Positions 20,501 to 64,000 of a stretch of 64,000 bases of DNA are shown piece by piece. A program made the translations under genes and the position numbers. The notes under the pieces are model-generated. The model ran no database searches. It was not told where the DNA came from and worked only from the letters and a program-made list of their open reading frames with translations. Source of the DNA: an uncultured Candidatus Saccharibacteria bacterium (lineage in GTDB: Bacteria > Patescibacteriota > Minisyncoccia > Portnoybacterales > UBA2143); assembly GCA_964517275.1 (NCBI GenBank), contig CAZFBL010000001.1, positions 14,144 to 78,143 of the forward strand. Reading direction: 5' to 3'. Positions within the stretch are counted from its first letter, which is position 1. The number at the start of each line of letters is the position of its first letter.

Positions 20501-20950
20501 TTCAATGTATTCATTATCCAGAGTGGCGTAAGATTGAGAAAAATCCGCCCAACGAGCAACTCGGTTAAAGGTTTTGTACCAATCGTTAATACATTGAAAA
20601 ACCGACTGACGACAGGCCTGATTAAATTTCTTAATCCCAAATTTCTCAATCTCTTTTTTGCTTTTCAAGCCCAATTTCTGTTCAATCATATTTTCAACCG
20701 GCAAACCATGGCAATCCCAGCCAACCCGCCAGCCAATACGATGGCCTTTCATCGCCCAATAACGCAAGACCGTATCTTTAATCGTCCCGGCTAGAATATT
20801 GCCGTAATGAGGCAAACCGGAGGCAAAAGGCGGTCCATCATAAAAACTAAAAAAGGGCTTCTTCTGGCGAAGCTTAATCGATTTGGCAAAAATGTCCTCT
20901 TTTTGCCAAAACTTCAATATTTTCTTCTCTATTTTAGGAATCGGATTCAT
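17513..20950 (-). CDS. ileS: Isoleucyl-tRNA synthetase (type 2) carrying an inserted histidine-phosphatase (PGAM-like) domain
   Basis: PPFASGLPHYGNILAG (HIGH variant HYGN). KLSKRLKNYP (KMSKS). 1145 aa. An insert of about 185 aa sits between PIPIW-QCSKCG and HRPFVD, with RHGQT...SSDFFRTRQTA...LIVGHGGP. Confidence 0.9.
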   Translation of the reverse strand: MNPIPKIEKKILKFWQKEDIFAKSIKLRQKKPFFSFYDGPPFASGLPHYGNILAGTIKDTVLRYWAMKGHRIGWRVGWDCHGLPVENMIEQKLGLKSKKEIEKFGIKKFNQACRQSVFQCINDWYKTFNRVARWADFSQSYATLDNEYIESVWWVLKQLWEQGLVYQDFRVTPYCPRCGTPLSNFELNQPGAYQEVEDESVYIKFPLKGQPDTFLFVWTTTPWTLAANTAVAVGPDFKYLKVKFNNQYYILAKERLDVLTKAGKCEVVEELFGRDLVGLEYQPLYPMKLDKPGYRIVPADFVSVEDGTGLVHIAPTFGEEDMELGQKEDLPGLITVDEEGKVIKGLKIPGEGKFVKKADQDIKADLKKRDLLFKAEKIKHAYPFCWRCESPLLYYPINSWYVAVTKFKKELVANNQKIRWVPGHLKKGRFGKWLEGARDWSISRNRYWGTPIPIWQCSKCGRTEVIGGLDELAQKAKRNNYYILRHGQTKFNIDYQIYTDTENRKMPLTGKGENEIRSLVPELKKAKIDLIFSSDFFRTRQTASIIGQALGIKVIQDRRLRDIEMGKFKGRPLKEYFAYFQNDNLKRFEQAPPGGENLSQVKKRMMSFLLATDKKYRNKNILIVGHGGPLWILKGASRGLSNEEIANNREKELVQVGQLSSLKFKKLPFDDQGNLNLHRPFVDQIEIPCSCGGTMKRTSEVFDCWFESGSMPYGQWHYPFQNKELVEKTFPADFIAEGIDQTRGWFYTLHVLASALTLKNLGLGKNQPAFKNVIVNGLVLGEDGKKLSKRLKNYPAPEAIFDKYGADAIRYYLLTGTPMGEDYIVSEKRIAETFRRTIMTFYNSFTFLDTYTDGECLAPKSVKPKNALDRWIISLFNTLNQEMVKWMDKYELTKAARLLDDFLEDFSNWYVRRSRRLFQRPINLSEKKEAQKVYSFVLLKLVKLAAPFLPFLTEEIYQHLEKGSSVHLADYPKSDKKLIDKKLEAKMSELRQIAAVGLAQRAKAGLKVRQPLEKLTISSKPIATDKGMANLLAEEVNVKEVVFGKEIKLDTKISPKLRAEGIVRDLIRFVQGMRKDGGLKPGDKIYLRYSTSPSLRKLVQKNESVIRAEVSANRIEATTKRKETFLVEKEVKLDGQKIWLGIRKR

Positions 20951-32971: not shown

Positions 32972-34645
32972 ATGACTTCCCTTAATTCAAAAACAAAAAA
33001 GCAGGCTCTCCAAGAGAAATTAACCGAATTAAGAAAAGAAGCTGAAGAAAGAAAGGCCAAACAATTAGCCGTTAAGCTTAATTTACCCTATCTTGATTTA
33101 AAGATAACACCGATTGAATCAGAAGCTCTTAAGCTGCTCTCTGAAGAAAGAGCAAAAAAGGCGAAACTGGCGGCCATCAAAAAGCAAGACAAAAAAATCT
33201 GGCTGGCCAGCCAAGAACCCGATAACCAGTCAGCTAAAAAAATTATTGAAGAACTCAAGAAAGAAGGCTACCAGATCAATCTGATTCTCGTTTCAATGGC
33301 TAGTCTGATTAAAGCTTGGGCTGGCTACCAACGAATAGCTGAGCCAGCTAAAGAAATTACCGGCAAAGTGGAAATAGCCAGTCAGGTCCTGGAAAGATTG
33401 CAAGAAGAAATTAAAAACTTAGCTGATATTAAAAAAAGAGTTGAAGAGAAATCAGTCAGCCAAGCCTCAACTATTATCGAGCTCCTTTTAGCTGGCGGCC
33501 TACAAACTAATTCTTCCGACATCCATTTGGAAAGCGAAGCCGATAAGATTAATTTACGTTACCGTATCGACGGTCTTCTCCAGGATGTCGCTTTTTTATC
33601 TCCAAAAATCTATCACTTTGTTTTGAACAGGCTAAAACTGTTAGCCGGTCTCAAATTAAACGTCCATGATATCGCCCAAGACGGCCGTTTCACCATTTCG
33701 TTGGGCAAAATTGATATCGAAATCAGGGTTTCCTGTCTGCCAAGCGCTTACGGAGAAAATATTGTCATGAGAATTCTCAATCCGAAGTCAATTGATTTGG
33801 ACCTGGAAAAATTGGGTTTGCGTCCGGATTTATTAGAGGTCATTCAAAAAGAAATTAAAAAGCCCGATGGGATGATCATTACCACTGGGCCGACTGGCTC
33901 GGGAAAAACAACTCTCCTTTATTCTTTTATTAAGAAAGTTAACAAACCAGAGGTTAAAATAATTACTCTGGAAGACCCGATTGAATATCATCTGGAAGGA
34001 ATTAGTCAAACCCAAACTGAAAAAGAAAAAGGTTATACCTTTGCCAAGGGCCTACGGGCCATTTTAAGACAAGACCCCGATGTTATCCTAATCGGCGAAA
34101 TTAGAGATAAAGAAACAGCTCAAATTGCCGTTCAGGCCGCTTTGACTGGTCATCTAGTATTTTCCACTCTTCATACTAATGACGCGGCCGGAGCGATTCC
34201 CCGTTTCCTCGATTTAGGACTACAGGCTTCTAATTTAGCTGCCTCGCTCAATCTAATTATTGCTCAACGCCTAGTCAGAAGACTTTGCTCCCATTGCCGT
34301 CAAGCCGTCTCTCCCTCGACCGAACAACTGAATAAAATAAAAAAAGCCCTAAGCGGGCTACCAAAACAAATCAAGCATAAACCGATAAATAAAAAACTGG
34401 AAATCTATCAGGCTAAAGGCTGTAACCAATGCAATCAAACCGGCTATCGGGGCCGAATTGGTATTTTTGAAATAATCCCGATTAACCAAACAATGGAGAA
34501 AATAATCAAGCCGGGCGTCAGCCACGCCGAAATTTTGGAAAAATCTTTTCAGCAAAGTCTAGTCAGCTTCCGACAAGACGCCTTGCTTAAAGTTTTAGAA
34601 GGAGTAACCAGCCTGGAAGAAGCAGAAAGAGTACTCGGCGAATAA
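32972..34645 (+). CDS. pilB: Type IV pilus / type II secretion assembly ATPase (PilB/GspE family)
   Basis: Walker A TGPTGSGKTT. Asp/His boxes. Tetracysteine CSHC...CNQC. Confidence 0.85.
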   Translation: MTSLNSKTKKQALQEKLTELRKEAEERKAKQLAVKLNLPYLDLKITPIESEALKLLSEERAKKAKLAAIKKQDKKIWLASQEPDNQSAKKIIEELKKEGYQINLILVSMASLIKAWAGYQRIAEPAKEITGKVEIASQVLERLQEEIKNLADIKKRVEEKSVSQASTIIELLLAGGLQTNSSDIHLESEADKINLRYRIDGLLQDVAFLSPKIYHFVLNRLKLLAGLKLNVHDIAQDGRFTISLGKIDIEIRVSCLPSAYGENIVMRILNPKSIDLDLEKLGLRPDLLEVIQKEIKKPDGMIITTGPTGSGKTTLLYSFIKKVNKPEVKIITLEDPIEYHLEGISQTQTEKEKGYTFAKGLRAILRQDPDVILIGEIRDKETAQIAVQAALTGHLVFSTLHTNDAAGAIPRFLDLGLQASNLAASLNLIIAQRLVRRLCSHCRQAVSPSTEQLNKIKKALSGLPKQIKHKPINKKLEIYQAKGCNQCNQTGYRGRIGIFEIIPINQTMEKIIKPGVSHAEILEKSFQQSLVSFRQDALLKVLEGVTSLEEAERVLGE

Positions 34646-47630: not shown

Positions 47631-48734
47631 TTAAGCCTTAATCGGCATAACTAAATAAGTGTAACTAGTGTCACCAACCGGCCTAATAACTATTGGCTTG
47701 TCGCTTCCGTTAAAACCTAAGCTAATTTTATCGCTAAAAATATTATTCAAGCCATCTAAAAGATAGCGGTAATTAAAAACTGTCTCAACTTCCCGGCCGT
47801 CGATTTTAGCCTCAATTTGAGACTTGTTTTCGCCAATATCAACATCTTTAGCGACAATCTCTAATAACGACTTCTCTGAATTAATGATTATCTTAATATT
47901 ATTTATTTTTCCGCTAAAAAGGCTGGCTACTTTAATATTACTAATTAAGTCTTCCCGATTAATAATTACTTCGGTCTTAAAATCATTAGGGATAATTTGT
48001 TGATAATCTGGGTATTGACCGTCGATTAACCTGGAGATAACTTGGTAATCTTCTAAATCAAATAAAATCTGGCCGGTTGATAAAACTATTTTAACCTCAT
48101 TTTCATTATCATTTAATATCCTAATTAGCTCTTGAATGGTTCTATGAGGAATAATTACTGTATGAGTTTTTGAGCTTTGAATGTTTTTAACTTCAATATT
48201 TTTTTCAGCTAAACGGAAACTATCAGTTGCCGCCAGTTTAATTAAACTTTTGTCGAATTTAGTATATATCCCTGAAATTTCCGGTCGCGATTCAGAAAAA
48301 GAAACCATCTCAACCACCTGAGATAAGCTATTTTTTAAAACCAACCCGTTAATTTTAATAACTGGCTCTTCTTTGATTTTTGGAATAATCGGGAAATCAT
48401 CAGCGCTTAACCCATTAATAATAGATTTAAATTTTTCACAACGTAGTTCTAATTGATTATTCTTGGTTTTAAGTTCTACTTTTTTATTAGGTAGGTTATT
48501 AATTAAATCGCTAATTAACCTCGCAGGAACGGTAATTTTACCTGATTCCGTTACTTTACCACTTAACCAAGTATTAATACCGATTTCTAAATTAGTTGAG
48601 GAAACCTTTAATTTACTTTTCTCAACCACTAAAAGAAGATTATTTAAAATAGGTAAAGATAAATTACGTCCAATAATCCTTTCAGTAATATTAAGAGCTT
48701 GTTTTAATTTTTCTTGAAGACAAATTATCTGCAT
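47631..48734 (-). CDS. dnaN: DNA polymerase III beta sliding clamp
   Basis: Three-domain length (367 aa). N-terminus MQIICLQEKLKQALNITERIIGRN. Immediately downstream of dnaA. Confidence 0.85.
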   Translation of the reverse strand: MQIICLQEKLKQALNITERIIGRNLSLPILNNLLLVVEKSKLKVSSTNLEIGINTWLSGKVTESGKITVPARLISDLINNLPNKKVELKTKNNQLELRCEKFKSIINGLSADDFPIIPKIKEEPVIKINGLVLKNSLSQVVEMVSFSESRPEISGIYTKFDKSLIKLAATDSFRLAEKNIEVKNIQSSKTHTVIIPHRTIQELIRILNDNENEVKIVLSTGQILFDLEDYQVISRLIDGQYPDYQQIIPNDFKTEVIINREDLISNIKVASLFSGKINNIKIIINSEKSLLEIVAKDVDIGENKSQIEAKIDGREVETVFNYRYLLDGLNNIFSDKISLGFNGSDKPIVIRPVGDTSYTYLVMPIKA

Positions 48735-48908: not shown

Positions 48909-50264
48909 CTAACTATAAATTCTTTCCTTGATTAAATTTATTTCTTGTAGGAGTGATTCGTTATTTTCAATATTCTTATTGATTTTTTGGTAGGCATACA
49001 TAACTGTTGTATGGTCGCGGCCGCCTATTTTTTCACCGATATATGGGTAAGAACCGTTAAGTTCTTCGCGAATTAGATACATAGTTATCTGACGGGGATA
49101 AACCAACTCTTTTTTTCGAGAACGGTTGATTAATTCATTAATACTGATATCATAAAATTCAGCGACTGCCTTAAGAATATTTTTTAAATTAGTCTTTCTT
49201 TTTGGGCTACTAATGATTTTAGAAAGAATCTGTGAGGTATTTTTTAAATTAGGTGAAATTTCATTCATTTGACAAAAAACAATTAATCTATTAAGCGCAC
49301 CTTCTAATTCTCTGATATTTTTTTGGACATTATTGGCAATGTAATTTACGACTTCTTCTTGTATTTTGAAATTTTTATCCTTAACTTTACTTCTAAGGAT
49401 AGCCATTCTTGTCTCTAAGTCGGGATAACTAATATCAGCAATCATTCCTCCTTCAAAACGGGAACGAAGTCTTTCTTCTAAAGTAGAAATTGCCTTGGGT
49501 GGCCGGTCAGAACTAATGATAATTTGCTTATTTTTCTGATAAAGAGAATTAAAGGTGTGGAAAAATTCCTCTTGGGTCTTCTCTTTGCCGGCAATGAAAT
49601 GAATATCGTCAATAATTAAAGTGTCTATTTTCTGGTATTTCTTTTTAAAACTATCCATTCCTTTTTTGGAAATAGCGTCAACTAGTTCGCTGGTGTATTT
49701 TTCAGAACTAAGATATTTAACTTTTTTATTGGGATATTTTTTAACTAACTCATTCCCGACAGCCTGAAGAAGATGAGTTTTACCTAGACCGACTCCGCCG
49801 TAAATAAAAAGAGGGTTGTAAAGCGTGCCTAAATGTTTAATAACCCCCAGGCCGGCCGCCTGGGCCAGTTCATTAAAGGAGCCGATAACAAAATTTTCAA
49901 AACTGTATTTAGGGTTTAGATTGGTTTCTCCATTAACATTAAACTCCTGGAATTTAAGTTGGTCTTCAGAGAAAGTGAAAGGAGGTTTTCTTTTAGCTGG
50001 ACTGGTTTCCAAAATAACTCCTCCCTCGATAATGAATTTAATTTCTTTGATATCAGGAGAATTATTACGTAGGATTTTTAAAATGAGTTTATTATATTTA
50101 TTTTCCAGCCATTCTTTAGTAAATGCGTTAGGGACGCCAATAGTAATCACTCCATCTTTTTTTGAGTGAATCCTGGTGTTTCTGAACCAAGTGATAAAAT
50201 TAGCTTTGGAAATACTTAATTCTATTTCGCCTAAGATAGCCTGCCAGAGTTCTTTTAAATTCAT
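48909..50264 (-). CDS. dnaA: Chromosomal replication initiator DnaA
   Basis: AAA+ Walker A GGVGLGKTHLL. DnaA signature and C-terminal DNA-binding helix region. Confidence 0.95.
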   Translation of the reverse strand: MNLKELWQAILGEIELSISKANFITWFRNTRIHSKKDGVITIGVPNAFTKEWLENKYNKLILKILRNNSPDIKEIKFIIEGGVILETSPAKRKPPFTFSEDQLKFQEFNVNGETNLNPKYSFENFVIGSFNELAQAAGLGVIKHLGTLYNPLFIYGGVGLGKTHLLQAVGNELVKKYPNKKVKYLSSEKYTSELVDAISKKGMDSFKKKYQKIDTLIIDDIHFIAGKEKTQEEFFHTFNSLYQKNKQIIISSDRPPKAISTLEERLRSRFEGGMIADISYPDLETRMAILRSKVKDKNFKIQEEVVNYIANNVQKNIRELEGALNRLIVFCQMNEISPNLKNTSQILSKIISSPKRKTNLKNILKAVAEFYDISINELINRSRKKELVYPRQITMYLIREELNGSYPYIGEKIGGRDHTTVMYAYQKINKNIENNESLLQEINLIKERIYS

Positions 50265-51082: not shown

Positions 51083-51808
51083 ATGGAAATATTAATAAAT
51101 TTTTTTAATCAAATCCTTTATTACCCTTTATTCAACGCCCTAATTTGGCTTTATAATAATATCCCAGGCCAAGATTTAGGGATAGCCATCATTGTTTTGA
51201 CCGCTCTAATACGTTTTATTTTATACCCTCTTTCCCAAAAGGCAATCCAGTCTCAAAAAGCGATGGCTAAATTACAGCCGGAGATAAAGGAAATTAGGAA
51301 GAAATACAAAGGGAAAGAAGAACAGGCCAAGGCGATGATGAATTTATATCAGAAATACAAGATTAATCCTTTTTCCGGTTGTCTGCCTATTCTTATTCAA
51401 CTACCCATCCTGTTCGCTCTTTATAGGGTTTTCTTCACCGGTTTAGACCCCCAGAGATTAAATGGACTTTATAGCTTTATTGAACAGCCGACATCGTTAA
51501 GCCCGATGTTTTTGGGGATAGTCGACCTTTCTCAAAGAAGTATCATTTTAGCTGTTTTAACTGGTATTCTTATGTTTATTCAATCTAAAATGATTATGCC
51601 TAAAAAAACAGCTCAACCGACCCAAGGGGTGAAAATAGCTGGTTTGGACATTTCTTCTCTAATGAGTCAACAGATGCTTTACTTTATGCCGTTAATCACT
51701 GTTTTAATTGCTTGGAATTTGCCGGCCGCTCTGCCTCTTTATTGGATAGTTATTACCCTATTCGGAATTATTCAGCAGTATTTTACAAAAGTTAAAATTG
51801 AAGGTTAG
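51083..51808 (+). CDS. yidC: Membrane protein insertase YidC (short Oxa1-like form)
   Basis: LGIAIIVLTALIRFILYPLSQKAIQS...PFSGCLPILIQLPILFALY. Confidence 0.85.
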   Translation: MEILINFFNQILYYPLFNALIWLYNNIPGQDLGIAIIVLTALIRFILYPLSQKAIQSQKAMAKLQPEIKEIRKKYKGKEEQAKAMMNLYQKYKINPFSGCLPILIQLPILFALYRVFFTGLDPQRLNGLYSFIEQPTSLSPMFLGIVDLSQRSIILAVLTGILMFIQSKMIMPKKTAQPTQGVKIAGLDISSLMSQQMLYFMPLITVLIAWNLPAALPLYWIVITLFGIIQQYFTKVKIEG

Positions 51809-54983: not shown

Positions 54984-56178
54984 TATGCTCCAGAAGTTTG
55001 TTAATTTGTTAATCTATTTAGTCGCCTTGCTTCTACCGGTTTATTTAATCCGTTTTGAAGTTTTTTCGTTGCCGATTAATTTACTGGAATTAATTATCGC
55101 TATTCTGTTGGCTCTTTGGTTAATTCTGAAAGTAAGCTCGACTCCTTTCCGATTCCGAGGACCAGCCTTTTTTTATCCAATTTTTCTAATCTTTGTTGGT
55201 CTGACTTTAGCCACTTTCTTTTCGGCTGATTTGAGAATAAGCGCTGGTATTTGGAAAAGCTGGTTTATTGTCCCCTGGCTCTATCTGGTCGTTTTAGTTG
55301 ATAATCTACAGACCGAAAAACAAGTCAATAAACTATTAATTGCTCTGACTTTATCCGGCCTGGGCGTTGCTTCAGTCGCTCTTGTCTATCGGCTGACTGG
55401 TCAGTTGACCTATGACGGTCGACTGAATGCCTTTTATCTTTCCCCTAATCATCTGGCTATGTATCTGTCGCCAATTCTCATTCTTTCTTTTTATCTTTAT
55501 TTCTGTTTTAAACGCAGCTTTTTCAAAATATTATTATTGTTAGTCGACTGCTTATTGTTATTGACCGTTTTTTTGACCTATTCCTATGGCGCCTGGCTGG
55601 GTTTATTGACTGCTTTTATTTTTCTGCTGATAATTCTGTATAGAAATAGGGATTGGTTTAGAAATTCAAAGATAGCCCTGGCGGCGATTAGCCTGATTTT
55701 TTTAGTTTTTATTCTAGCCTGCTTGAGTCAAATTCCCAGTCATAAATTCCAGAGCCTGGCTGATTTATCTTATCCCTCTTTGCAGTCGCGATTGGCGATT
55801 TGGCGGAGCGCTTGGCAAATAGCTGTTGACCATCTTTGGTTAGGCATCGGCCCCGGGCTTTTTCAGCAATATTATTTGGACTATCAGAACCAAATGCCTC
55901 CTTACTTGGAATGGGCTGTTCCACAGCCTCATAATCTTTTTTTGGCCTTCTGGTTACAGACTGGCTTGCTTGGTTTAATCGGCTTTATTTGGCTTTTAGC
56001 TCTCTTTTTTAAGCAAATATTCAAGCAAATAAAAAACAGCCATCTGATTGCCTGTTTTTTAATGGCGGCTATGATTTATCTTTTAATCCACGGTTTAATC
56101 GATACTACTTATTGGAAGAATGATTTGTCAATTATCTTTTGGTTGATAATCGGTCTGGCTTCCAGCCGGCTTGCTTAA
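54976..56178 (+). CDS. O-antigen ligase-like (Wzy_C) membrane protein, paralogue 2
   Basis: YSYGAWLGLLTAFIFLL (Wzy_C signature). Polytopic. Confidence 0.65.
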   Translation: MINMLQKFVNLLIYLVALLLPVYLIRFEVFSLPINLLELIIAILLALWLILKVSSTPFRFRGPAFFYPIFLIFVGLTLATFFSADLRISAGIWKSWFIVPWLYLVVLVDNLQTEKQVNKLLIALTLSGLGVASVALVYRLTGQLTYDGRLNAFYLSPNHLAMYLSPILILSFYLYFCFKRSFFKILLLLVDCLLLLTVFLTYSYGAWLGLLTAFIFLLIILYRNRDWFRNSKIALAAISLIFLVFILACLSQIPSHKFQSLADLSYPSLQSRLAIWRSAWQIAVDHLWLGIGPGLFQQYYLDYQNQMPPYLEWAVPQPHNLFLAFWLQTGLLGLIGFIWLLALFFKQIFKQIKNSHLIACFLMAAMIYLLIHGLIDTTYWKNDLSIIFWLIIGLASSRLA

Positions 56179-56207
56179 TTAAAGCGAAAGTGGGTCCTTG
56201 TCGCCGG

Positions 56208-56290
56208 CGAGAAAAGGTCTGGCCTCGCCCAACCCAGCTCGTAATTATTGGTTAGTTTTGAAAATTTTAGTTGGAAAGGCCAGACCTTTT
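56208..56290. repeat. Conserved stem-loop intergenic element, copy B (GAAAAGGTCTGGCC...GGCCAGACCTTTTC), followed by two extra copies of the 3' arm
   Basis: About 85% identical to 8714..8796. The C-to-T change in the left arm is compensated by G-to-A in the right arm. Extra arms AAAAGGCCAGGCCTTTTC and GAAAGGCCAGACCTTTTCC through 56336. Confidence 0.6.
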
Positions 56291-56341
56291 CAAAAGGCCA
56301 GGCCTTTTCGAAAGGCCAGACCTTTTCCTTTCTACTGGTTA

Positions 56342-57478
56342 TCAAAGTTCTAAGCTATAAAGCAGACTGTTGAGTTTATTGATAAAAAGAAGATAGTCTT
56401 CCAAGGGGGATAAAAGCAGTTGTTGGGCATCGTAAGACATAGTTTCTTCTTCAGCCTCGGCCGATGGATAAATCTGAATCTTCTCTCCGGTATCTAAATT
56501 AACCCGCCAAAAATTATCAGCCAAGACAACTAACCCTTTGTAATAATCATCAGGCAAGGTGGCTGTGGTCGAAATATTCTTAGGAACGGCGCAGAAAATG
56601 GTTCGGTTATCCTGAGACCAAACGCATTTTTCCGGCAAAGTGACAAAATCCAATTCCTTAGTCGTCTGCTTAGCCAAATTGGCTATTTTTAATTTGAGAT
56701 TTTTGCCCCGTTCATCAGTCTCCGAAAAGAGTATTTTGTCTCCCTGCGGCGACCAAATAACAGTCAAGCCATAAGTTTCGCTAATAAGCTTCTGTAAATG
56801 GCCGTTGGCCAAATCAATTGAATAGACAACGCTTTGTGCTAAACCGCTTGGTCTGGTCCGAATGGATAATTGGCTGGAATTGGGCCACTCAACAATCAAG
56901 TTTTTCATCCGGGTGGCTAAAATATTAGTCCAGTTTGAACCATCCGGATTGGCAATACTAATATTATTGTCTTCAGTCTGCGGATTATAGTATTGATAAG
57001 CGATTTTGTCTTGGTTAGGCGACCAGGTGATGTGTCGGATATTTGAATCAAGCTGGGTCGCTTTTTCGGTTTGGTAATCATAAAGATATTTTTTTATTTC
57101 TCCTCCGTCATCAAAAATAGCAATAACCTTATCTCGCTGGGGTGACCAGAGAGCTTTTAACAAATCGGTTAGTAGATTAGCCGAAACCCTTGTTTTATCG
57201 GAGCCATCAAAATCGGATTCGAAAACATTGCCGTTACCCATTAGATAATACTTGACTTTTTGTCCATCAGCAATCGGACTTAAAATTGATTCTTGGGTGA
57301 TTGTCTTGATTCGACCGGCTTGCTTTAGCTCGGTTGAGGAAGCTGGGCCGGTTGTCGGTTTAGTCGGTTCTTCTTCTTTGAAAAAGTAATTATAAGCAAT
57401 TAAAAAACCTACTACAAGGACAAGTAGGACGATTAAAATGATAAAGATTTTTTTGAGCGACATATTTTTATTTAGCAA
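56342..57478 (-). CDS. Membrane-anchored PD40/TolB-like beta-propeller repeat protein
   Basis: N-terminal TM. Repeated W-SP-(Q/N)-DK-I motifs (WSPQRDKVIAIF, WSPNQDKIAYQ, WSPQGDKILFSE). Confidence 0.55.
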   Translation of the reverse strand: MLNKNMSLKKIFIILIVLLVLVVGFLIAYNYFFKEEEPTKPTTGPASSTELKQAGRIKTITQESILSPIADGQKVKYYLMGNGNVFESDFDGSDKTRVSANLLTDLLKALWSPQRDKVIAIFDDGGEIKKYLYDYQTEKATQLDSNIRHITWSPNQDKIAYQYYNPQTEDNNISIANPDGSNWTNILATRMKNLIVEWPNSSQLSIRTRPSGLAQSVVYSIDLANGHLQKLISETYGLTVIWSPQGDKILFSETDERGKNLKLKIANLAKQTTKELDFVTLPEKCVWSQDNRTIFCAVPKNISTTATLPDDYYKGLVVLADNFWRVNLDTGEKIQIYPSAEAEEETMSYDAQQLLLSPLEDYLLFINKLNSLLYSLEL

Positions 57479-57491
57479 GAGTTAACTATTA

Positions 57492-57953
57492 TTAGGGGCC
57501 AGCTGTTTCTATGCACTGACAAGAACTGAAATCCCAGGAGTAGTTCGGCTCACAGGGTATTTCGCATTGAGCCGGGCAATGGCCCGGATGGCACGGTTCA
57601 TGCCAACTGACTAAGTCTGGATTGATTGTGTTTAAAATTAAATAGGCGGCTAATGCTAATAATAGGCCGGAAATAGCTCCCCAAATATATTTCTTGGCTT
57701 CTTCTTTAGAGGTAATTGTTCCGGAGAGCATATAGTTGAAGCCGCCATAAACTAAAGCGGCTAGAGCGGCGATACCGACTAGACCTAGGCCAAAAAGATA
57801 AATATAGCGAAGATAGGTCAATAAATCAGGTTCGGTTTCGGTCATCTGGGGGATGCTTACTTCTATTTCGTAAGCAGTTTGACCGATAAAAGGAATTAAT
57901 AATAAACAGCCGAGCGCGGAAGACAAGATAATTTTAATTAATAGTTTTTTCAT
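57492..57953 (-). CDS. VirB2/TrbC-pilin-like small membrane protein with Cys-rich C-terminal tail
   Basis: Signal peptide, two hydrophobic helices, then HEPCHPGHCPAQCEIPCEPNYSWDFSSCQCIE (7 Cys). Confidence 0.4.
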   Translation of the reverse strand: MKKLLIKIILSSALGCLLLIPFIGQTAYEIEVSIPQMTETEPDLLTYLRYIYLFGLGLVGIAALAALVYGGFNYMLSGTITSKEEAKKYIWGAISGLLLALAAYLILNTINPDLVSWHEPCHPGHCPAQCEIPCEPNYSWDFSSCQCIETAGP

Positions 57954-57976: not shown

Positions 57977-58723
57977 CTAAGGGATGAGGTTTATTTCTGC
58001 TTTAGTTTGGGCATCTTGTAGAGAGTTATTCTTGTTTTCTAAATTAATAGTCAAGTCTTCTTCAATTGATTGGCCTACTTGGCCTACTTTAATAATAACG
58101 ACGTTAGGATGTTCGTTGCCGGTTTGGGACAATTCTTTTTCTCCCCAGTTCCATTGGTAATTTAGTTCGTTTAAATTTTGAATGTTGAAAAAATAAGGTT
58201 GGGCCGTGAATTTTACTTCCTGATTAGCTTTGATTTGATATTGAGAAGTTAATCGGCTAAGTTTCCGGGGGAATATATCAGTTTTTAAAACAACTTCTGG
58301 TTCAGCCGTTTTTAAAGAAAGAAGAGGCGAATAACCCAGGAAATTATTTTGGTTGTCTCTAATCAGTACCTTGATCAAGTATTGTTGGTTGAGGCTCTGG
58401 CTGGTCTTAAATCTGAAAATCTGTTTATCCTGGCCGGAGTCTTTTTTTTGAAGTTGGCCATCCAGAAACCATTGATAATTTAGCTCCTGGAGATTGGTTT
58501 CCAGCTGGCCGGTCAGCCAGTCAATATTAGCCACCACTTCAATCATGCTTTCCTGGCTGGGCAAGGCCTTGCCCGGGTAATTAGTCGGGACGTAGACATC
58601 GGTTGACCAAGTTAGAGTGATTGATATCCTTTGGGCTTGGCCTCCTGTGAAAGGAAACAATATAAAGAGACAGCAACAGATAAGCGGGAGGAAATATCTA
58701 ATTAAAATTATTCGTTTATTCAT
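57977..58723 (-). CDS. Secreted hypothetical protein (signal peptide)
   Basis: N-terminal hydrophobic leader. Internal duplication (LNYQWFLDG / LNYQWNWGE). Confidence 0.45.
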   Translation of the reverse strand: MNKRIILIRYFLPLICCCLFILFPFTGGQAQRISITLTWSTDVYVPTNYPGKALPSQESMIEVVANIDWLTGQLETNLQELNYQWFLDGQLQKKDSGQDKQIFRFKTSQSLNQQYLIKVLIRDNQNNFLGYSPLLSLKTAEPEVVLKTDIFPRKLSRLTSQYQIKANQEVKFTAQPYFFNIQNLNELNYQWNWGEKELSQTGNEHPNVVIIKVGQVGQSIEEDLTINLENKNNSLQDAQTKAEINLIP

Positions 58724-59124
58724 TTTATTTTAGTCGGCTTTGCTAGGGTTTTGGACAGATAGCCTTTCTCTTCCAGATAGATGCTGATAACAAAAATAGT
58801 CCAGGTTGGCAATAAATCGCCTAGGCCGGGAATTAGTTCAGTTAAAAAAGTTGTTCCAAATCTAGCGCCAGGAAAACGATGTAAGCGAACAAGACACCAG
58901 AGTCCGAGAATCCCAGCCGTAACCAGATCAATAAGTCGAAAAAGCAGTAAATCTAATCCCAGCCAGTCGCAAAGGTCGTTAATTGCCGCGATAAGGCCAA
59001 TAAGGAAGAATTCAACGTCACTAATTTCGCTAGCGGCCGGAGATAATTCTTTTCTGACTTTAACTTTTTTCTTAGTGGCCTTAGCCCTTCTGGCCTGATT
59101 AAGAGAAGCTGTATAATTAGGCAT
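58720..59124 (-). CDS. Small membrane protein (basic N-terminus, 2-3 TM)
   Basis: ORF with a hydrophobic core. Overlaps the next gene by 4 nt. Confidence 0.4.
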   Translation of the reverse strand: MPNYTASLNQARRAKATKKKVKVRKELSPAASEISDVEFFLIGLIAAINDLCDWLGLDLLLFRLIDLVTAGILGLWCLVRLHRFPGARFGTTFLTELIPGLGDLLPTWTIFVISIYLEEKGYLSKTLAKPTKIK

Positions 59125-59142: not shown

Positions 59143-60957
59143 TCAATAGGCCGTACCGGCGGTCTCCTTCGTCTCCTTTCCGTTCTCTTCGGCCAGTTCT
59201 TTTTTGGCCTGTTCAATCTCCATCAATTGAGCTGGGTCAGAAGTGATAATCTGGTCTTCGGTGTAGGAGGCGATTACTTGGATAGCTACGTGTTTTAGGC
59301 CAGCGAAGAAAATACCCTCGCCGACGCTGGCCGCTAGTAATCTGCTTTTTTCTTGTTCGGTTAAATGAAAGGTTTCCTTAACCACGTCAATTGTCGCTGG
59401 CGACTGCTTTAATAGGAGCTGTAAAGAGGAGTTAGTGACAATCGGTTTGCCGTATTTGGATTTCATAAAGTCAGCTATGTCTTGAGTGATAGTAGTCAGT
59501 CCCAGGTAATACTTTCGACACCTTTTGGCGATTCCGAAAAGGAAAGAAGCGGCGTCCTCGTGCTGCATCATCCACCAAGCCTCGTCAACGACTAAAATCC
59601 TTTTCTTCTTTTGAGAGCGGACAATATTCCAGATATAACGAAGAATGACATACATAGCTAAAGGCCTTAATTCGTCCTCCATGTCGCGAATACTAAAGAC
59701 GACTAATTTTTTACCTAATTCTATGTTGGTTGGTTCATTAAAGAAGCCGGCGTAGCTGCCACTAACATATTTTTCTAAACGGGTGGCCAAACTTTCTCCG
59801 CCAGTCATTCCTTTTAAAACAGTATAGAGGTCCTGCATTAAAGGCGGATTGATTTTGGTGAAATCTGACTCGGCGGTGATATCGCGGGCGGCGTAAGTTT
59901 GGCTGAGCGCTTTATCTATGACAGCGTCTTCTTCCGGAGTCAAACCACCAAGCATTATTCTTAAAAGGCCGACTAGATTGATAATGTTGCTTCTTAAAAG
60001 ATTGGCCGGCTTGTCGTCTGGTCCGGGCAAGGGCAAGTCAAACGGATTAAGATGGTGAGTTGAAGTCAGGGAAATATCAATAAAGCTGCCGCCAACCGTT
60101 TCAGTCAGATATTTATATTCTTTTTCCGGGTCAATGATAATTACTTCTGCCTCCTGCATCAAAGAACGGAGAACTTCCAATTTAACTGAATATGATTTTC
60201 CTGAGCCGGATTTGGCAAAAACGACCATATTCCCGTTTTCCAAACTAAAACGGTCGAATAAGATTAGGGAGTTATTGTGAGTGTTAATGCCGTAAAGAAT
60301 CCCCTTATTGTCAGTTAAATCAGAAGAAATGAAAGGGAAAGTTGATGATAAGGGAGCGGTGTTAAAGCTGTTATGAATGATTAGTTTGTCTTCTTCTAAA
60401 GGCAAGGTTGAAATAAGGCCTTGTTCCTGTTGAAAGACAGCTGGCTTGGCATAGATGCTCTGGTTTTCTAGAATAGCCCTGATTTCGTTCTCAATTTCAT
60501 CTAACTGTTTGATTGAGTCGGAAAAAAATGTAATATAAAGGCCGAATTTGAAAAGCCTTTCCATGCCTTGCTGTAATTTGTCGCGTAAATCTTCAACATT
60601 TTGAAAGGCGGTTTCCAAAACTGGACTACGTACTCTGCCTTTCTCTTGCTGAAGAGATATTTGAGACTGAATTTGAGCCGTCTTCTTAGTTAGATTTTTT
60701 AAAACAGTTCTTGTCTCTATCGGATGAATGAATAAAGAAACATTCATTTCTTGGTCAAAAGTGATGATCGGCGAGAGCCAGCCAGTGTTCAAAACGCTCG
60801 GATAAGTAAAAACAAAGATGGTCCGGCCGTATTTTTGGCCAAGCTGGAAATAGCCGGATTCAATCTTAAGCCCAGCCGGAGCAATCAAATTAACCAAGTC
60901 TGTTTTAGAATCTATTTCCAAGGGTTCTTCTTTTTTTATTTTTTTGAACAGAGACAT
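59143..60957 (-). CDS. VirB4/TraC-like T4SS ATPase, C-terminal ATPase part
   Basis: Walker A VVFAKSGSGKSYSV. Walker B RILVVDEAWWMM. 604 aa. Confidence 0.8.
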   Translation of the reverse strand: MSLFKKIKKEEPLEIDSKTDLVNLIAPAGLKIESGYFQLGQKYGRTIFVFTYPSVLNTGWLSPIITFDQEMNVSLFIHPIETRTVLKNLTKKTAQIQSQISLQQEKGRVRSPVLETAFQNVEDLRDKLQQGMERLFKFGLYITFFSDSIKQLDEIENEIRAILENQSIYAKPAVFQQEQGLISTLPLEEDKLIIHNSFNTAPLSSTFPFISSDLTDNKGILYGINTHNNSLILFDRFSLENGNMVVFAKSGSGKSYSVKLEVLRSLMQEAEVIIIDPEKEYKYLTETVGGSFIDISLTSTHHLNPFDLPLPGPDDKPANLLRSNIINLVGLLRIMLGGLTPEEDAVIDKALSQTYAARDITAESDFTKINPPLMQDLYTVLKGMTGGESLATRLEKYVSGSYAGFFNEPTNIELGKKLVVFSIRDMEDELRPLAMYVILRYIWNIVRSQKKKRILVVDEAWWMMQHEDAASFLFGIAKRCRKYYLGLTTITQDIADFMKSKYGKPIVTNSSLQLLLKQSPATIDVVKETFHLTEQEKSRLLAASVGEGIFFAGLKHVAIQVIASYTEDQIITSDPAQLMEIEQAKKELAEENGKETKETAGTAY

Positions 60958-60958
60958 G

Positions 60959-61615
60959 TTATTCCATTCTTAACTCCTTAGCCTTGCCCAGCTCGGGCTC
61001 TTCTTTGGCGCTGGGGTTGTATAGTTTGTAGAAAAGTTCAATCAGTTCATCGGTTTTTAAGGGAACCGCCTTAAGACCAGTGCTTCTTAAACCGGCTGTA
61101 ATGAACTCAACTCTTTGCCAGAGATTATTTTTTAATTCCTCGAAGCTTTCTTGGGAGCTGGAATCCTTATTCTTTTTAAAACCGCCTAATAAGTTACCAA
61201 AGAAACCAATCTTTTTAGTAATGGAGGGATTATAAGGAACGATTAAGTAGAAGGATTCGGTCATAATATTGGTTGTCTCGGTCAGGCCTTTAACAAAATC
61301 AAGATATTCTGAAGTCTGTACTTTTAGTAATTCATTTTCTTGTTTTTCCTGATGTTGCTTTAATGTTTCTAAATACGGCTCAATGTCGAATTTTCGGGAA
61401 GCGGCCATAATTTGGATAGGAAAATCAAGCGAATTTAGAAGGGCCTGATAACGATGGACAATAGCGTCCTGCTCATCAGTTGATTTAAGGGCAAAATTAA
61501 TACTGCTAGTCATTAAAATAGCCCGCAGTCCACCGCTCTTGAGAATCAGGACGCCGTCCTTTATTTCTTTAATTGGTAAGTGTTTTTGGATAGAGGCTGA
61601 TTTTTGTTGAGACAT
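60959..61615 (-). CDS. VirB4-like N-terminal domain encoded as a separate ORF
   Basis: LPIKEIKDGVLILKSGGLRAILMTSSINFALKSTDEQDAI resembles Gram-positive VirB4 (PrgJ/TcpF) N-termini. The stop TAA is 1 nt before the ATG of 59143..60957, in a different frame. Confidence 0.5.
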   Translation of the reverse strand: MSQQKSASIQKHLPIKEIKDGVLILKSGGLRAILMTSSINFALKSTDEQDAIVHRYQALLNSLDFPIQIMAASRKFDIEPYLETLKQHQEKQENELLKVQTSEYLDFVKGLTETTNIMTESFYLIVPYNPSITKKIGFFGNLLGGFKKNKDSSSQESFEELKNNLWQRVEFITAGLRSTGLKAVPLKTDELIELFYKLYNPSAKEEPELGKAKELRME

Positions 61616-61893
61616 TATTTTTTTCGCCAGAGATATAATCTGGGCTTCCTTAAGTATTTGACTAATGAGCCCAAAAGAGAAACAAACGGCCGGCCGTTGA
61701 CTCTATAAAAAGCTAAAGCGCCGCAGAGAGCCGCCACCGGAATGGCTACAATAATAAAAGCGGTCAGCTTAAGAAAAAACCAAAGGATAAAAAGCAAGCC
61801 GGCCCCGCCTCCTAAGTAGAAAAACTGTTTTAAGGTTAAGGGACCGATAATTTTGTCTTCTACTTCAATAAATTGGGGAACATTGAACTGCAT
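61615..61893 (-). CDS. PrgI-family (VirB3-like) small T4SS membrane protein
   Basis: MQFNVPQFIEVEDKIIGPLTLKQFFYLGGGAGLL plus two TM segments. Stop overlaps the next start (TAATG). Confidence 0.6.
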   Translation of the reverse strand: MQFNVPQFIEVEDKIIGPLTLKQFFYLGGGAGLLFILWFFLKLTAFIIVAIPVAALCGALAFYRVNGRPFVSLLGSLVKYLRKPRLYLWRKK

Positions 61894-61936: not shown

Positions 61937-62497
61937 TTAATGTCCGTTTTTTAAATCGACCACATTTCCCTCTAGACGCGGTCCATCTGCCTTGGCTTGA
62001 TCTGATGTTTCAATTGGTTCGCGATAAGTATCTCCTCTGGCTGGCTGTGATTCGGCTCTTTCAGGCGGACTATCTTTTAATTTAACCACCGGCGATGGAC
62101 TTGGCTCTTTGACAGTTCCTTCTTCACGCGGCCAGGACGGGACCCGATGAATCTTTTTTAAGTTTTCTTTGACTGGTAGAAAAATAGTCTGATTAATATC
62201 TCTGGCCAGCTGACGAGCCGGTTCTTCGGCTAAGCCGCATTCTTTCTGGAGCGACTTGACAAAATTAACGATGTTGGTTTCGCCTAATAAGATTAGGCCG
62301 GTCACGTAAGAAGCCTGGACAAGCTGTTCCCTATCCAAATTGTTTTTTAAACCGATTTCTCTGACTTGGTTGGCAGTATTTTCATTAAAAAATAAGTTGC
62401 GCATCTCTGGCGGAAGTTGAAAATAAATACCGTATCTTTTTCTAATAGTCGGATTATTAACTTTTTTTAATTTTTTTACTTGTAAGGAAGTAAGCAT
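61937..62497 (-). CDS. Hypothetical protein with Pro/charged-rich C-terminus
   Basis: ORF only. Confidence 0.4.
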   Translation of the reverse strand: MLTSLQVKKLKKVNNPTIRKRYGIYFQLPPEMRNLFFNENTANQVREIGLKNNLDREQLVQASYVTGLILLGETNIVNFVKSLQKECGLAEEPARQLARDINQTIFLPVKENLKKIHRVPSWPREEGTVKEPSPSPVVKLKDSPPERAESQPARGDTYREPIETSDQAKADGPRLEGNVVDLKNGH

Positions 62498-62501
62498 GTT
62501 T

Positions 62502-64000
62502 TTATTTCTTCAGCGCTTCTCGCGACTTTTCTAATTCTTCTTCGCTTATTTTCCGGCCGCCGGCGCCGGCCGGGCTGGCTGTTTTGATGAATGGTTCGCC
62601 CTCTGGCGCGTATAAGCTTCTACCCAAGTCAGTTCCTAGATAATCTTGGACAGGCCGTGGAAAGCTTTCAATATTTTCCTTGGTCATTATTTTCTGGATT
62701 CTGCTTCTTAAACCCGGGTCAGGTCCCATCTGTCCCAAATGCGCGCTAGTCCAATGACCATCTCTAAAGGCCTTAACAATAGCTTCCTGGATTTTATCTA
62801 TTTCTTCAGGCACTATTTTCTTGGCTTGTTCAGGCTTAATTTTGTTAACTACTTCCTGGACGTCTCTGTTTACTTCTCCGGCTAAACTAGGCATGGCTTT
62901 AACTAATTTTGATTCCTGGCCGTAGCGCTGGGCTAATTTTAGTCCTTTTTTGCGCTGCTCCGGTTTCTTAAGCATATCCAAATCGTCGTTTTCATGAAGC
63001 TGAAGCATTCTGGCTACTTTTCCTTCAGCCGGCGCTCGGTCGAAAGTATCAACCAAATTTTTGCTGGCCCAGCCCTTGATAGATTCTTTTTCCTGCTGAA
63101 CCATGGCCCGGTTTTGCTCTAAGCCGCGGAAAGCCGGAATAGCTAATTTGCCGGCTATTTTAATTTTGGCTATCTGACTTAGTCCTCTCTGGATTAGGCC
63201 GCCCTCCAGCTTTCCGCTAGGCGTCTTTTTGGGCGGCGGAGCCATTTTGGCTAGGGTTCGTCTACTGACTTGGCCCGGCCACTTGGCTGCTCTGGCACTG
63301 ACTCCTTTAACTACACCCATAGCTCCTTGGGCGCCGTAAACACCCATTTTCTGAGCGACGATTAATCCGCCAAAAAGCAGGCCAATAATGCAAATAAACT
63401 GAAGAAATAAAGAGGGTACTGATAATAAGACAAAAGCGCTGGTTTCCGTAAAGCCGGAGGCATTAATAATATTTTCAGTTTGATTTCTAATCAACGAAGT
63501 AAAAGCGCCGCCTTCAGCCGCTTTAACAGCTAAGTAAACAAAAAAGAAATAAATAGGAGCAAAAAAGACCCATTTTAGAAAAGTATTCCACCATTGGCGA
63601 AAAAGATGGGCGGTATGAGGCAGAATAAACATTAGCCAGGCAATTGGAGCTAAAATAAGCAGTATCCAAAGGATAATTAAACGGACGATTAGGAAAAAAG
63701 CGCCTACCCCTAAGGCGAAAGTGGCGCAAAGAATAAGAATTATACCCAAAAAGAGAGAAGATACGACCATTAAGACGCCGCCGGCTCCGGCCCCTAATGC
63801 ATCGCCAAAGCCGGATTCCTTGTTTATTTCATAGACACTTTGGATGTTCAGGGCCTTAGCCAGTTGGGCACTTACTCCGGTCGTGCTGCCTATTTGGTCA
63901 TAAAAGAAATAGGTCAAGACCTGGGAAAAATCAATAATCAGACCGGCCAAGACCAAACTAAAATTAATTAAGAGAGCGGCGATAACTAATTTAGGCAAGA
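62502..64000 (-). CDS. Polytopic membrane protein with large C-terminal soluble domain; VirB6/TrbL-like candidate (N-terminus may lie beyond the window)
   Basis: About 6 TM helices in the first ~230 aa, then a hydrophilic charged region. Positioned with the VirB3/VirB4 homologues. Confidence 0.4.
   Translation of the reverse strand, partial: LPKLVIAALLINFSLVLAGLIIDFSQVLTYFFYDQIGSTTGVSAQLAKALNIQSVYEINKESGFGDALGAGAGGVLMVVSSLFLGIILILCATFALGVGAFFLIVRLIILWILLILAPIAWLMFILPHTAHLFRQWWNTFLKWVFFAPIYFFFVYLAVKAAEGGAFTSLIRNQTENIINASGFTETSAFVLLSVPSLFLQFICIIGLLFGGLIVAQKMGVYGAQGAMGVVKGVSARAAKWPGQVSRRTLAKMAPPPKKTPSGKLEGGLIQRGLSQIAKIKIAGKLAIPAFRGLEQNRAMVQQEKESIKGWASKNLVDTFDRAPAEGKVARMLQLHENDDLDMLKKPEQRKKGLKLAQRYGQESKLVKAMPSLAGEVNRDVQEVVNKIKPEQAKKIVPEEIDKIQEAIVKAFRDGHWTSAHLGQMGPDPGLRSRIQKIMTKENIESFPRPVQDYLGTDLGRSLYAPEGEPFIKTASPAGAGGRKISEEELEKSREALKK

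What the first reader, a model, noticed from the sequence alone, without database searches (positions are those of the whole stretch)
59143..61893. Gram-positive-type T4SS core (PrgI/VirB3-like then VirB4) with VirB4 split into two ORFs at a TAAcATG junction
Seen in sequence. A PrgI-like 92-aa protein (MQFNVPQFIEVEDKIIGPLTLKQFFYLGGG...) is followed by a 218-aa ORF resembling the N-terminal domain of PrgJ/TcpF-type VirB4 (...KDGVLILKSGGLRAILMTSSINFALKSTDEQDAI...). Next comes a 604-aa ORF with the VirB4 Walker A (AKSGSGKSYS) and Walker B (ILVVDEAWW). The two VirB4 parts are in different frames. They are separated only by TAA-c-ATG, with stops in both frames, so a simple indel would not fuse them.

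Established knowledge. VirB4 is normally a single ~800-aa polypeptide. CPR/Saccharibacteria genomes carry a reduced T4SS implicated in episymbiosis or DNA uptake.

Inference. This is either a genuinely two-piece VirB4 expressed by translational coupling or a recently disrupted gene.
Basis: partly seen in the sequence, partly recalled or inferred. Interest (0 to 1): 0.55.

Follow-up and report, generated by a model that had tools for sequence, protein, structure and literature searches.

The report
Conserved two-gene VirB4 secretion ATPase
The motor protein (VirB4) of this bacterium's type IV secretion machine really is encoded as two adjacent genes. The same split is conserved across dozens of related ultra-small (CPR/Patescibacteria) species and is already in the literature, where the small piece is called TrsD, so this is an ordinary member of a known system and not a broken gene.

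Summary
On the minus strand lie a 92-aa PrgI/VirB3-like gene (61893..61615), a 218-aa gene (61615..60959) and a 604-aa VirB4 ATPase gene (60957..59143). They are joined by TAATG and TAAcATG.

The 218-aa protein is the missing N-terminus of VirB4. It matches the first ~120-170 positions of three VirB4 models. Its predicted fold hits TrwK/VirB4 best. It aligns collinearly, together with the 604-aa protein, to full-length ~790-aa VirB4 proteins of other Patescibacteria.

The split is not recent damage. In all 32 related species loci where the junction could be read, each piece has its own stop and start. Gaps run from -4 to +330 nt, in all three relative frames. Both genes are under purifying selection (median dN/dS 0.135 and 0.09).

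The break point matches TrsD|TrsE of staphylococcal plasmid pSK41. A 2025 paper already reports PrgI-TrsD-VirB4 as the widespread, origin-proximal chromosomal T4SS of Patescibacteria. In this window dnaA lies 9 kb away, and no relaxase or coupling protein is present.

Verdict: real, functional, already known, low interest.

The parts
62502..63998 (-). 498-aa polytopic membrane protein, a VirB6/TrbL-like candidate and first gene of the conserved cluster
   Evidence: Weak PF04610 TrbL match, E 5e-4, below the cut-off. A homolog sits upstream of PrgI in 29 of 36 related loci.
61937..62497 (-). 186-aa conserved protein of unknown function, between the VirB6-like gene and PrgI
   Evidence: No family match. 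Present in the same position in 26 of 36 related loci.
61615..61893 (-). 92-aa PrgI/VirB3-like membrane protein
   Evidence: PF12666 PrgI, E 2e-12, 47.9 bits against a cut-off of 27. Its stop overlaps the next gene's start (TAATG). Present in 33 of 36 loci.
60959..61615 (-). 218-aa TrsD-like protein, the detached first ~215 residues (first N-terminal subdomain) of VirB4
60955..60961 (-). Junction TAA-c-ATG: stop of the N piece, one base, then the start of the ATPase piece
   Evidence: Across 32 related loci the median gap is 4 nt, and 25 of 32 gaps are 11 nt or less.
59143..60957 (-). 604-aa VirB4 ATPase piece, comprising the second N-terminal subdomain and the P-loop C-terminal domain
   Evidence: NF045971 positions 183-733/752, 384.9 bits against a cut-off of 325. 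PF19044, E 5e-24. PDB 4ag5, E 7e-44. 54% identical to P0262 residues 232-796. Collinear with pSK41 TrsE from residue 19 to residue 32 of TrsE.
60193..60207 (-). Walker A, GSGKS
59572..59598 (-). Walker B, ILVVDEAWW
58720..59124 (-). 134-aa membrane protein, a conserved downstream cluster member
   Evidence: Present in the same position in 21 of 36 loci. No significant family match.
57977..58723 (-). 248-aa protein with an N-terminal hydrophobic segment, a conserved cluster member
   Evidence: Present in 21 of 36 loci. No significant family match.
57492..57953 (-). 153-aa VirB2-like T4SS pilin candidate
   Evidence: Weak matches: PF18895 T4SS_pilin, E 3e-4, and NF045849 Mbov_0395 pilin-like, E 1.4e-3, both below their cut-offs. 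Present in 22 of 36 loci.
56342..57478 (-). 378-aa membrane-anchored beta-propeller-like protein, last conserved gene of the cluster
   Evidence: Weak propeller matches. Present in 18 of 36 loci.

Best explanation
This is the chromosomal, origin-proximal type IV secretion cluster typical of Patescibacteria. It is related to monoderm (MPF-FATA) conjugation systems.

Its VirB4 motor is encoded by two genes. The 218-aa TrsD-like protein equals the first ~215 residues of a full-length VirB4. The 604-aa protein equals the rest, namely the second N-terminal subdomain plus the Walker A/B ATPase domain.

Shown here:
- The two pieces are complementary and collinear with full-length VirB4.
- The split is conserved across many species.
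- Both pieces are under purifying selection.
- The break lies in a variable stretch that the structure models predict with low confidence.
- The break point is the same as TrsD|TrsE of pSK41.

Inferred:
- PrgI, the N piece and the ATPase piece are translated from one mRNA by termination-reinitiation (TAATG, TAAcATG), which would give roughly equal amounts.
- They then assemble non-covalently at the membrane into the equivalent of a VirB3-VirB4 protomer.
- The resulting hexamer powers a T4SS used for epibiotic growth or macromolecule uptake rather than conjugation.
For: Complementarity:
- N covers model positions 3-170 and C covers 236-724 of TIGR00929.
- N covers 8-118 and C covers 183-733 of NF045971.
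- N residues 4-206 align to P0262 residues 3-214, and C residues 23-586 align to P0262 residues 232-796. P0262 is a 797-aa single-chain VirB4 of another Patescibacterium.
- P0262's model aligns end to end with R388 TrwK/VirB4: 813 columns, E 2.5e-26.

Conservation:
- There are 4840 homologs of N. The best 120 are all 214-255 aa.
- 149 of the best 150 cluster representatives at 50% identity are standalone.
- All 32 species loci with a readable junction keep the order PrgI-N-C, with a separate stop and start, gaps of -4 to +330 nt, and all three relative frames.
- Median dN/dS is 0.135 for N and 0.09 for C.

Linker: N residues 206-218 have pLDDT below 50. The junction-equivalent residues 211-230 of the fused model have pLDDT 58-63.

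Same break as pSK41: the order there is TrsC-like, trsD (227 aa), TrsE (672 aa). C residue 19 aligns to TrsE residue 32.

Literature: TrsD is described as a remote homolog of the VirB4 N-terminus, found next to virB4 in 1664 Patescibacteria cases and listed as essential in Ca. Southlakia epibionticum. The cluster often lies near dnaA (PMC12102498).

Window context: dnaA, dnaN and yidC lie 9 kb away. No relaxase or T4CP was found among the ORFs of 120 aa or more.
Against: - No protein-level data exist here. Physical association of N with C and with PrgI is inferred from fused orthologs and gene coupling only.
- Sequence similarity of N to staphylococcal TrsD itself is weak: hhalign E 5.6e-4 over 83 columns, and NF041427 at 29 bits against a cut-off of 200.
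- There is no clear Shine-Dalgarno sequence before the ATPase gene in most loci, and 7 of 32 loci have gaps of 20-330 nt. Translational coupling is therefore common but not universal.
- Read-level support for the junction could not be checked.
Confidence: 0.88

Rival explanations
1. A recently disrupted VirB4, either a pseudogene in the making or a frameshift introduced by sequencing or assembly error near the homopolymer runs.
For: A single-base deletion at 60959-60971 would restore one 823-aa ORF. A T7AT7 run lies 10-25 nt downstream of the ATG. Genuine artefactual 'splits' exist elsewhere: P0289 and P0385 are cut by 100-N scaffold gaps.
Against: The same two-gene layout, with each gene having its own stop and start, is found in all 32 related species loci with a readable junction. 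Junction sequences, gap lengths and relative frames differ between them. Both halves show dN/dS of about 0.1. Standalone ~217-aa homologs number in the thousands.
Confidence: 0.02
2. Programmed +1 frameshifting or stop bypass at the junction produces a fused full-length VirB4 from the two ORFs.
For: The ATPase frame is open for four codons before its ATG and is offset by +1 from the N frame, so a shift in the last three codons would fuse them.
Against: No conserved slippery site was found. In relatives the two genes stand in all three relative frames, sometimes overlap as ATGA, and are sometimes 20-330 nt apart with intervening stops. A conserved ATG followed by M(S/L)LF begins the ATPase piece in most loci.
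Confidence: 0.03
3. The TrsD-like protein is an evolutionary derivative of the VirB4 N-terminus but now acts on its own. It could be a regulator, a substrate adaptor or an assembly factor, rather than a stoichiometric part of the ATPase.
For: [quoted passage not shown] Many standalone homologs carry long low-complexity C-terminal tails, with total lengths of 300-443 aa (for example P0141 and P0235). That is only possible with a free C-terminus.
Against: Fused orthologs at 40-54% identity show the module works as part of the VirB4 chain. The 604-aa piece lacks exactly this region. Gene adjacency and tight junctions are conserved.
Confidence: 0.07

Closest known systems
TrsD/TraD + TrsE/TraE of staphylococcal conjugative plasmids pGO1/pSK41 (MPF-FATA, pGO1 subclass)
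   Same: The gene order is the same: small VirB3-like membrane protein, then a ~220-aa protein, then a ~600-670-aa VirB4-type ATPase. The ATPase pieces start at equivalent positions: C residue 19 aligns to TrsE residue 32, E 1e-40. N matches the TrsD/TraD model, E 8.6e-7.
   Different: The plasmid system is conjugative and comes with a relaxase and a VirD4-like coupling protein. This cluster is chromosomal, lies near dnaA, and has no relaxase or T4CP in the window. Similarity of N to TrsD is far below the NCBIfam cut-off (29 bits against 200).
Patescibacteria chromosomal T4SS as described by Quinonero-Coronel et al. 2025 (PMC12102498) and functionally in Ca. Southlakia epibionticum ML1
   Same: The same component set is present: VirB4, TrsD, PrgI/VirB3, VirB6-like and a VirB2-like pilin. 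The location near dnaA/dnaN, rnpA and yidC is the same, and so is the absence of a relaxase.
   Different: Nothing essential differs. The paper treats TrsD as a separate component of unknown function and does not discuss it as a gene fission with fused counterparts inside the phylum (no occurrence of 'fission', 'shorter' or 'domain architecture').
Full-length VirB4 (R388 TrwK; CD1110 family; ~790-aa VirB4 of Colwellbacteria-type Patescibacteria)
   Same: N plus C together cover the whole protein collinearly. The fold of N and of the fused relative matches TrwK. Walker A and B are intact.
   Different: Here the first ~215 residues are a separate polypeptide.
VirB3-VirB4 fusions (some Campylobacter plasmids) and SCO6880-family proteins of Actinobacteria
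   Same: These also redistribute the VirB3 / VirB4-N / VirB4-ATPase modules among genes. PrgI, N and the start of C each give weak hits to successive parts of the SCO6880 model: positions 12-80, 234-295 and 348-475 of 477.
   Different: Those are fusions of VirB3 with VirB4 parts. Here all three modules are separate genes. The hits are far below the cut-off.

Membership tests
VirB4 family T4SS ATPase | C-terminal P-loop NTPase domain with Walker A and Walker B | tested here: met
   GSGKS at residues 251-255 and ILVVDEAWW at residues 454-462. PF19044, E 5e-24. PDB 4ag5 VirB4 CTD, E 7e-44.
VirB4 family T4SS ATPase | Passes a curated VirB4 family model | tested here: met
   The 604-aa ORF scores 384.9 bits against NF045971 (CD1110-family VirB4-like ATPase), cut-off 325. 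It falls below the cut-offs of TIGR00929 (125 against 643) and of the proteobacterial models.
VirB4 family T4SS ATPase | Single ~800-aa chain that includes the first ~200-residue N-terminal subdomain | tested here: not met
   That subdomain is a separate 218-aa ORF with its own stop. The layout is conserved in 32 of 32 related loci with a readable junction.
VirB4 family T4SS ATPase | Encoded next to a VirB3-like membrane protein | tested here: met
   PrgI (PF12666) lies directly upstream, with an overlapping stop and start.
TrsD/TraD family (NF041427) / Pfam PF26593 TraC-like | Standalone ~200-230-aa protein homologous to the VirB4 N-terminus | tested here: met
   [not shown]
TrsD/TraD family (NF041427) / Pfam PF26593 TraC-like | Encoded between the VirB3-like gene and the VirB4-type ATPase gene | tested here: met
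TrsD/TraD family (NF041427) / Pfam PF26593 TraC-like | Reaches the NCBIfam curated score for NF041427 | tested here: not met
   29 bits against a cut-off of 200. hhalign against pSK41 TrsD gives E 5.6e-4 and probability 30%. This makes it a distant relative, not a member of the staphylococcal subfamily.
PrgI / VirB3-like | Passes the Pfam PF12666 gathering score; small protein with hydrophobic helices | tested here: met
   47.9 bits against 27.
Patescibacteria-type chromosomal T4SS (PMC12102498) | VirB4 + TrsD + PrgI clustered with VirB6-like and VirB2-like genes | tested here: met
   The three core genes are firm. The VirB6-like and pilin-like genes have only sub-threshold hits (E 5e-4 and 3e-4), but their positions are conserved in relatives.
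Patescibacteria-type chromosomal T4SS (PMC12102498) | Chromosomal, near dnaA, without an adjacent relaxase or T4CP | tested here: met
   dnaA is at 50264..48909, dnaN at 48734..47631 and yidC at 51083..51808. No relaxase or VirD4 was found among the window's ORFs of 120 aa or more. Anything beyond position 64000 is unseen.
Patescibacteria-type chromosomal T4SS (PMC12102498) | Required for epibiotic growth | not testable with these tools
   Reported only for Ca. Southlakia epibionticum ML1, as cited in PMC12102498.

The most novel reading that the evidence does not exclude
The first ~215 residues of VirB4 may be an autonomous module that has toggled between separate and fused states inside one phylum.

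In a rough tree of the N domain, the fused ~790-aa forms (Colwellbacteria type) make one clade nested among standalone forms. That would make the fused state a secondary re-fusion.

Standalone copies have in several lineages acquired long disordered C-terminal tails, which hints at an added adaptor role.

If confirmed, this natural fission/fusion series would define a functional domain boundary of VirB4. It would also give TrsD, which currently has no assigned function, a concrete role as the VirB3-binding piece of the motor.
Probability: 0.35. Interest if true: 0.3.

Novelty: already known. Interest (0 to 1): 0.15.

Why it matters
For annotation, the 218-aa gene should be called a TrsD-like VirB4 N-terminal-domain protein. 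The pair should not be flagged as a pseudogene or frameshift.

For biology, the finding adds little beyond the published description of the Patescibacteria T4SS. There is a modest increment. TrsD plus the short VirB4 is an exact, collinear complement of the full-length VirB4 proteins found in sister lineages. This supports the view that TrsD is a detached structural part of the motor rather than an unrelated accessory protein.

Tried and rejected
- phmmer of the 218-aa ORF against PDB sequences gave nothing meaningful. Fold comparison was needed instead.
- An exact-sequence look-up of the window's own N protein (P0001) found no contig on record.
- The two 600-aa 'split' proteins inside the fused clade (P0289, P0385) looked like independent fissions. 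They turned out to be artefacts of 100-N scaffold gaps inside a fused gene.
- I considered whether the two N-terminal subdomains of VirB4 are an internal duplication, because their secondary-structure order in the fused model looks similar. A profile-profile comparison found no similarity (E 0.23), so the idea was dropped.
- Guglielmini et al. 2014 (PMC4027160) does not mention TrsD in its main text. The statement about TrsD homology therefore rests on PMC12102498.
- Programmed frameshifting was considered and rejected, because relative frames and gap lengths vary among relatives.
Full report
**1. The observation**

The minus strand of window 59143-61893 carries three consecutive ORFs, exactly as described: 61893..61615 (92 aa), 61615..60959 (218 aa, 'N') and 60957..59143 (604 aa, 'C').

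- The PrgI stop overlaps the N start (TAATG). N ends GAA TAA, followed by one C and then the ATG of C.
- Walker A (AKSGSGKSYS, residues 248-257) and Walker B (ILVVDEAWW, residues 454-462) are present.
Deleting any one base at window 60959-60971 yields a single 823-aa ORF.

**2. What the pieces are**

- The 92-aa protein passes Pfam PrgI: PF12666, 47.9 bits against a cut-off of 27.
- C passes NCBIfam NF045971, 'VirB4-like conjugal transfer ATPase, CD1110 family': 384.9 bits against 325, model positions 183-733 of 752. It matches the solved VirB4 C-terminal domain 4ag5 at E 7e-44.
- N matches only the N-terminal positions of VirB4 models: TIGR00929 3-170/792, NF045971 8-118/752, and NF045975 98-233/894 at E 4e-11. 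It also matches the TrsD/TraD model NF041427 at E 8.6e-7.
- N and C are therefore complementary and do not overlap.

**3. Is the split real or recent damage?**

- A search of 5.8 billion proteins found 4840 homologs of N. The best 120 (62-77% identity) are all 214-255 aa.
- Among cluster representatives at 50% identity, 149 of the best 150 are standalone proteins of 161-443 aa.
- A scan of one genome per species returned 36 loci, all Patescibacteria. The named ones are Portnoybacteria and one Terrybacteria.
- Thirty-four of these loci hold both pieces, in the order PrgI-N-C wherever PrgI is also on the contig. In all 32 where the junction geometry could be computed, N has its own stop and C its own start.
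- The gap ranges from -4 (ATGA overlap) to +330 nt, with a median of 4 nt. The two genes occur in all three relative frames.
- Pairwise dN/dS for pairs with dS below 2 has a median of 0.135 for N and 0.09 for C.
- The whole nine-gene order is conserved: VirB6-like, orf186, PrgI, N, C, a 134-aa membrane protein, a 248-aa protein, a pilin-like protein and a beta-propeller protein.
- A recent frameshift, a pseudogene or an assembly error is therefore excluded as the origin of the split. The variable frames and gaps also argue against programmed frameshifting.

**4. Fused counterparts**

- One representative, P0262 (797 aa), contains both parts in one chain. N residues 4-206 align to P0262 residues 3-214 (40% identity). 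C residues 23-586 align to P0262 residues 232-796 (54% identity).
- P0262 is encoded next to PrgI and close to rnpA, yidC and dnaA in another Patescibacterium.
- A search with P0262 found that 118 of the best 120 hits are ~780-807-aa single-chain proteins. Several are labelled Candidatus Colwellbacteria.
- The two 600-aa exceptions are cut by 100-N scaffold gaps.
- The model of P0262 aligns end to end with TrwK/VirB4 (813 columns, E 2.5e-26).
- The stretch equivalent to the break is only moderately confident: residues 211-230 have pLDDT 58-63. In the N model, residues 206-218 fall below 50.
- The 34 residues flanking the break in the window are replaced by 17 unrelated residues in P0262.
- The break therefore sits in a variable stretch between the first ~215 residues and the rest of the protein. 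I read this stretch as a linker.
- In a rough neighbour-joining tree of the N domain (midpoint rooted, no support values), the fused forms make one clade nested among standalone forms. This suggests, tentatively, that the fused state is secondary.

**5. Comparison with what is known**

- In pSK41 the transfer operon reads: CagC-like pilin, a 135-aa hypothetical protein, trsD (227 aa), then a 672-aa DUF87 ATPase (TrsE).
- C aligns with TrsE from C residue 19 to TrsE residue 32 onward (E 1e-40), so the break point is the same.
- N resembles TrsD only weakly (hhalign E 5.6e-4).
- Quinonero-Coronel et al. 2025 (PMC12102498) make several relevant statements:
[quoted passage not shown] - It is listed as essential in Ca. 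Southlakia epibionticum ML1.
  - The cluster usually lacks a relaxase and often lies near dnaA.
- The window fits this description. dnaA (50264..48909), dnaN and yidC are 9 kb away. Every other ORF of 120 aa or more is a housekeeping gene, with no relaxase or coupling protein.
- That paper does not discuss the arrangement as a fission, and it does not mention fused counterparts.

**6. Mechanism**

Shown:
- A conserved, selected, two-gene encoding of a complete VirB4.
- A break in a variable stretch that the models predict with low confidence.
- Junctions of 11 nt or less between N and C in 25 of 32 loci.

Inferred from established knowledge of R388 (as summarised in PMC12857230), where the VirB4 N-terminal domain contacts VirB3 and VirB8:
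- The three genes are co-translated by termination-reinitiation.
- N docks non-covalently onto C and onto PrgI at the membrane, reconstituting the VirB3-VirB4 unit that hexamerises and energises the machine.
- The biological role is presumably host-dependent growth or macromolecule uptake rather than conjugation, as proposed in the literature.

A minority alternative is that N has gained an independent adaptor or regulatory role. Some standalone homologs carry long disordered C-terminal tails.

**7. Verdict**

The arrangement is the known TrsD+VirB4 layout of Patescibacteria and pGO1-type plasmids, so novelty is 'already known' and interest is low. The small increment is the explicit demonstration that the two pieces complement each other, together with the finding of fused orthologs within the phylum.

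Noticed in passing
L012:1263-5075 and L008:868-3996 (homologs of window 60957..59143): In two related species the VirB4 ATPase gene is one continuous ORF carrying a ~667-aa insertion exactly inside Walker A: AKSGSGK | S(V/I)(C/R)GSEP ... LAGLIDADG-like motifs ... GGLFVHN | SYA(V/I)KLEV. Removing it restores the uninterrupted P-loop. This looks like a homing-endonuclease intein (Ser1 ... HN / Ser+1) in the VirB4 P-loop.
   Followed up: partly
window 17513-20950 (-): The 1145-aa isoleucyl-tRNA-synthetase-like ORF contains a histidine-phosphatase-superfamily domain (PF00300, E 1e-32) at residues 482-646, inserted between the two stretches of the class I synthetase core.
   Followed up: no
P0141, P0235 and other 300-443-aa entries: Many standalone TrsD-like proteins in other Patescibacteria have long, low-complexity (P/Q/S/A/E-rich) C-terminal tails after the ~210-aa domain. 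The window's copy has none.
   Followed up: no
[not shown]
   Followed up: no
L039:1545-1647 and L040:1802-2008: Runs of 100 N (scaffold gaps) inside a fused virB4 make gene callers emit a 600-aa 'split' VirB4 (P0289, P0385). This is a source of false fission calls in database surveys.
   Followed up: yes
window 56178-56345: The intergenic stretch between the O-antigen-ligase-like gene and the T4SS cluster translates in several frames as repeated hexapeptides (KVWPFE / KARPFQ). This indicates a short ~18-bp tandem DNA repeat.
   Followed up: no
window 32972-34645 (+): A PilB-type T2SSE ATPase (PF00437, E 7e-122) stands alone among housekeeping genes. It is probably part of the type IV pilus system known in these bacteria.
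   Followed up: no
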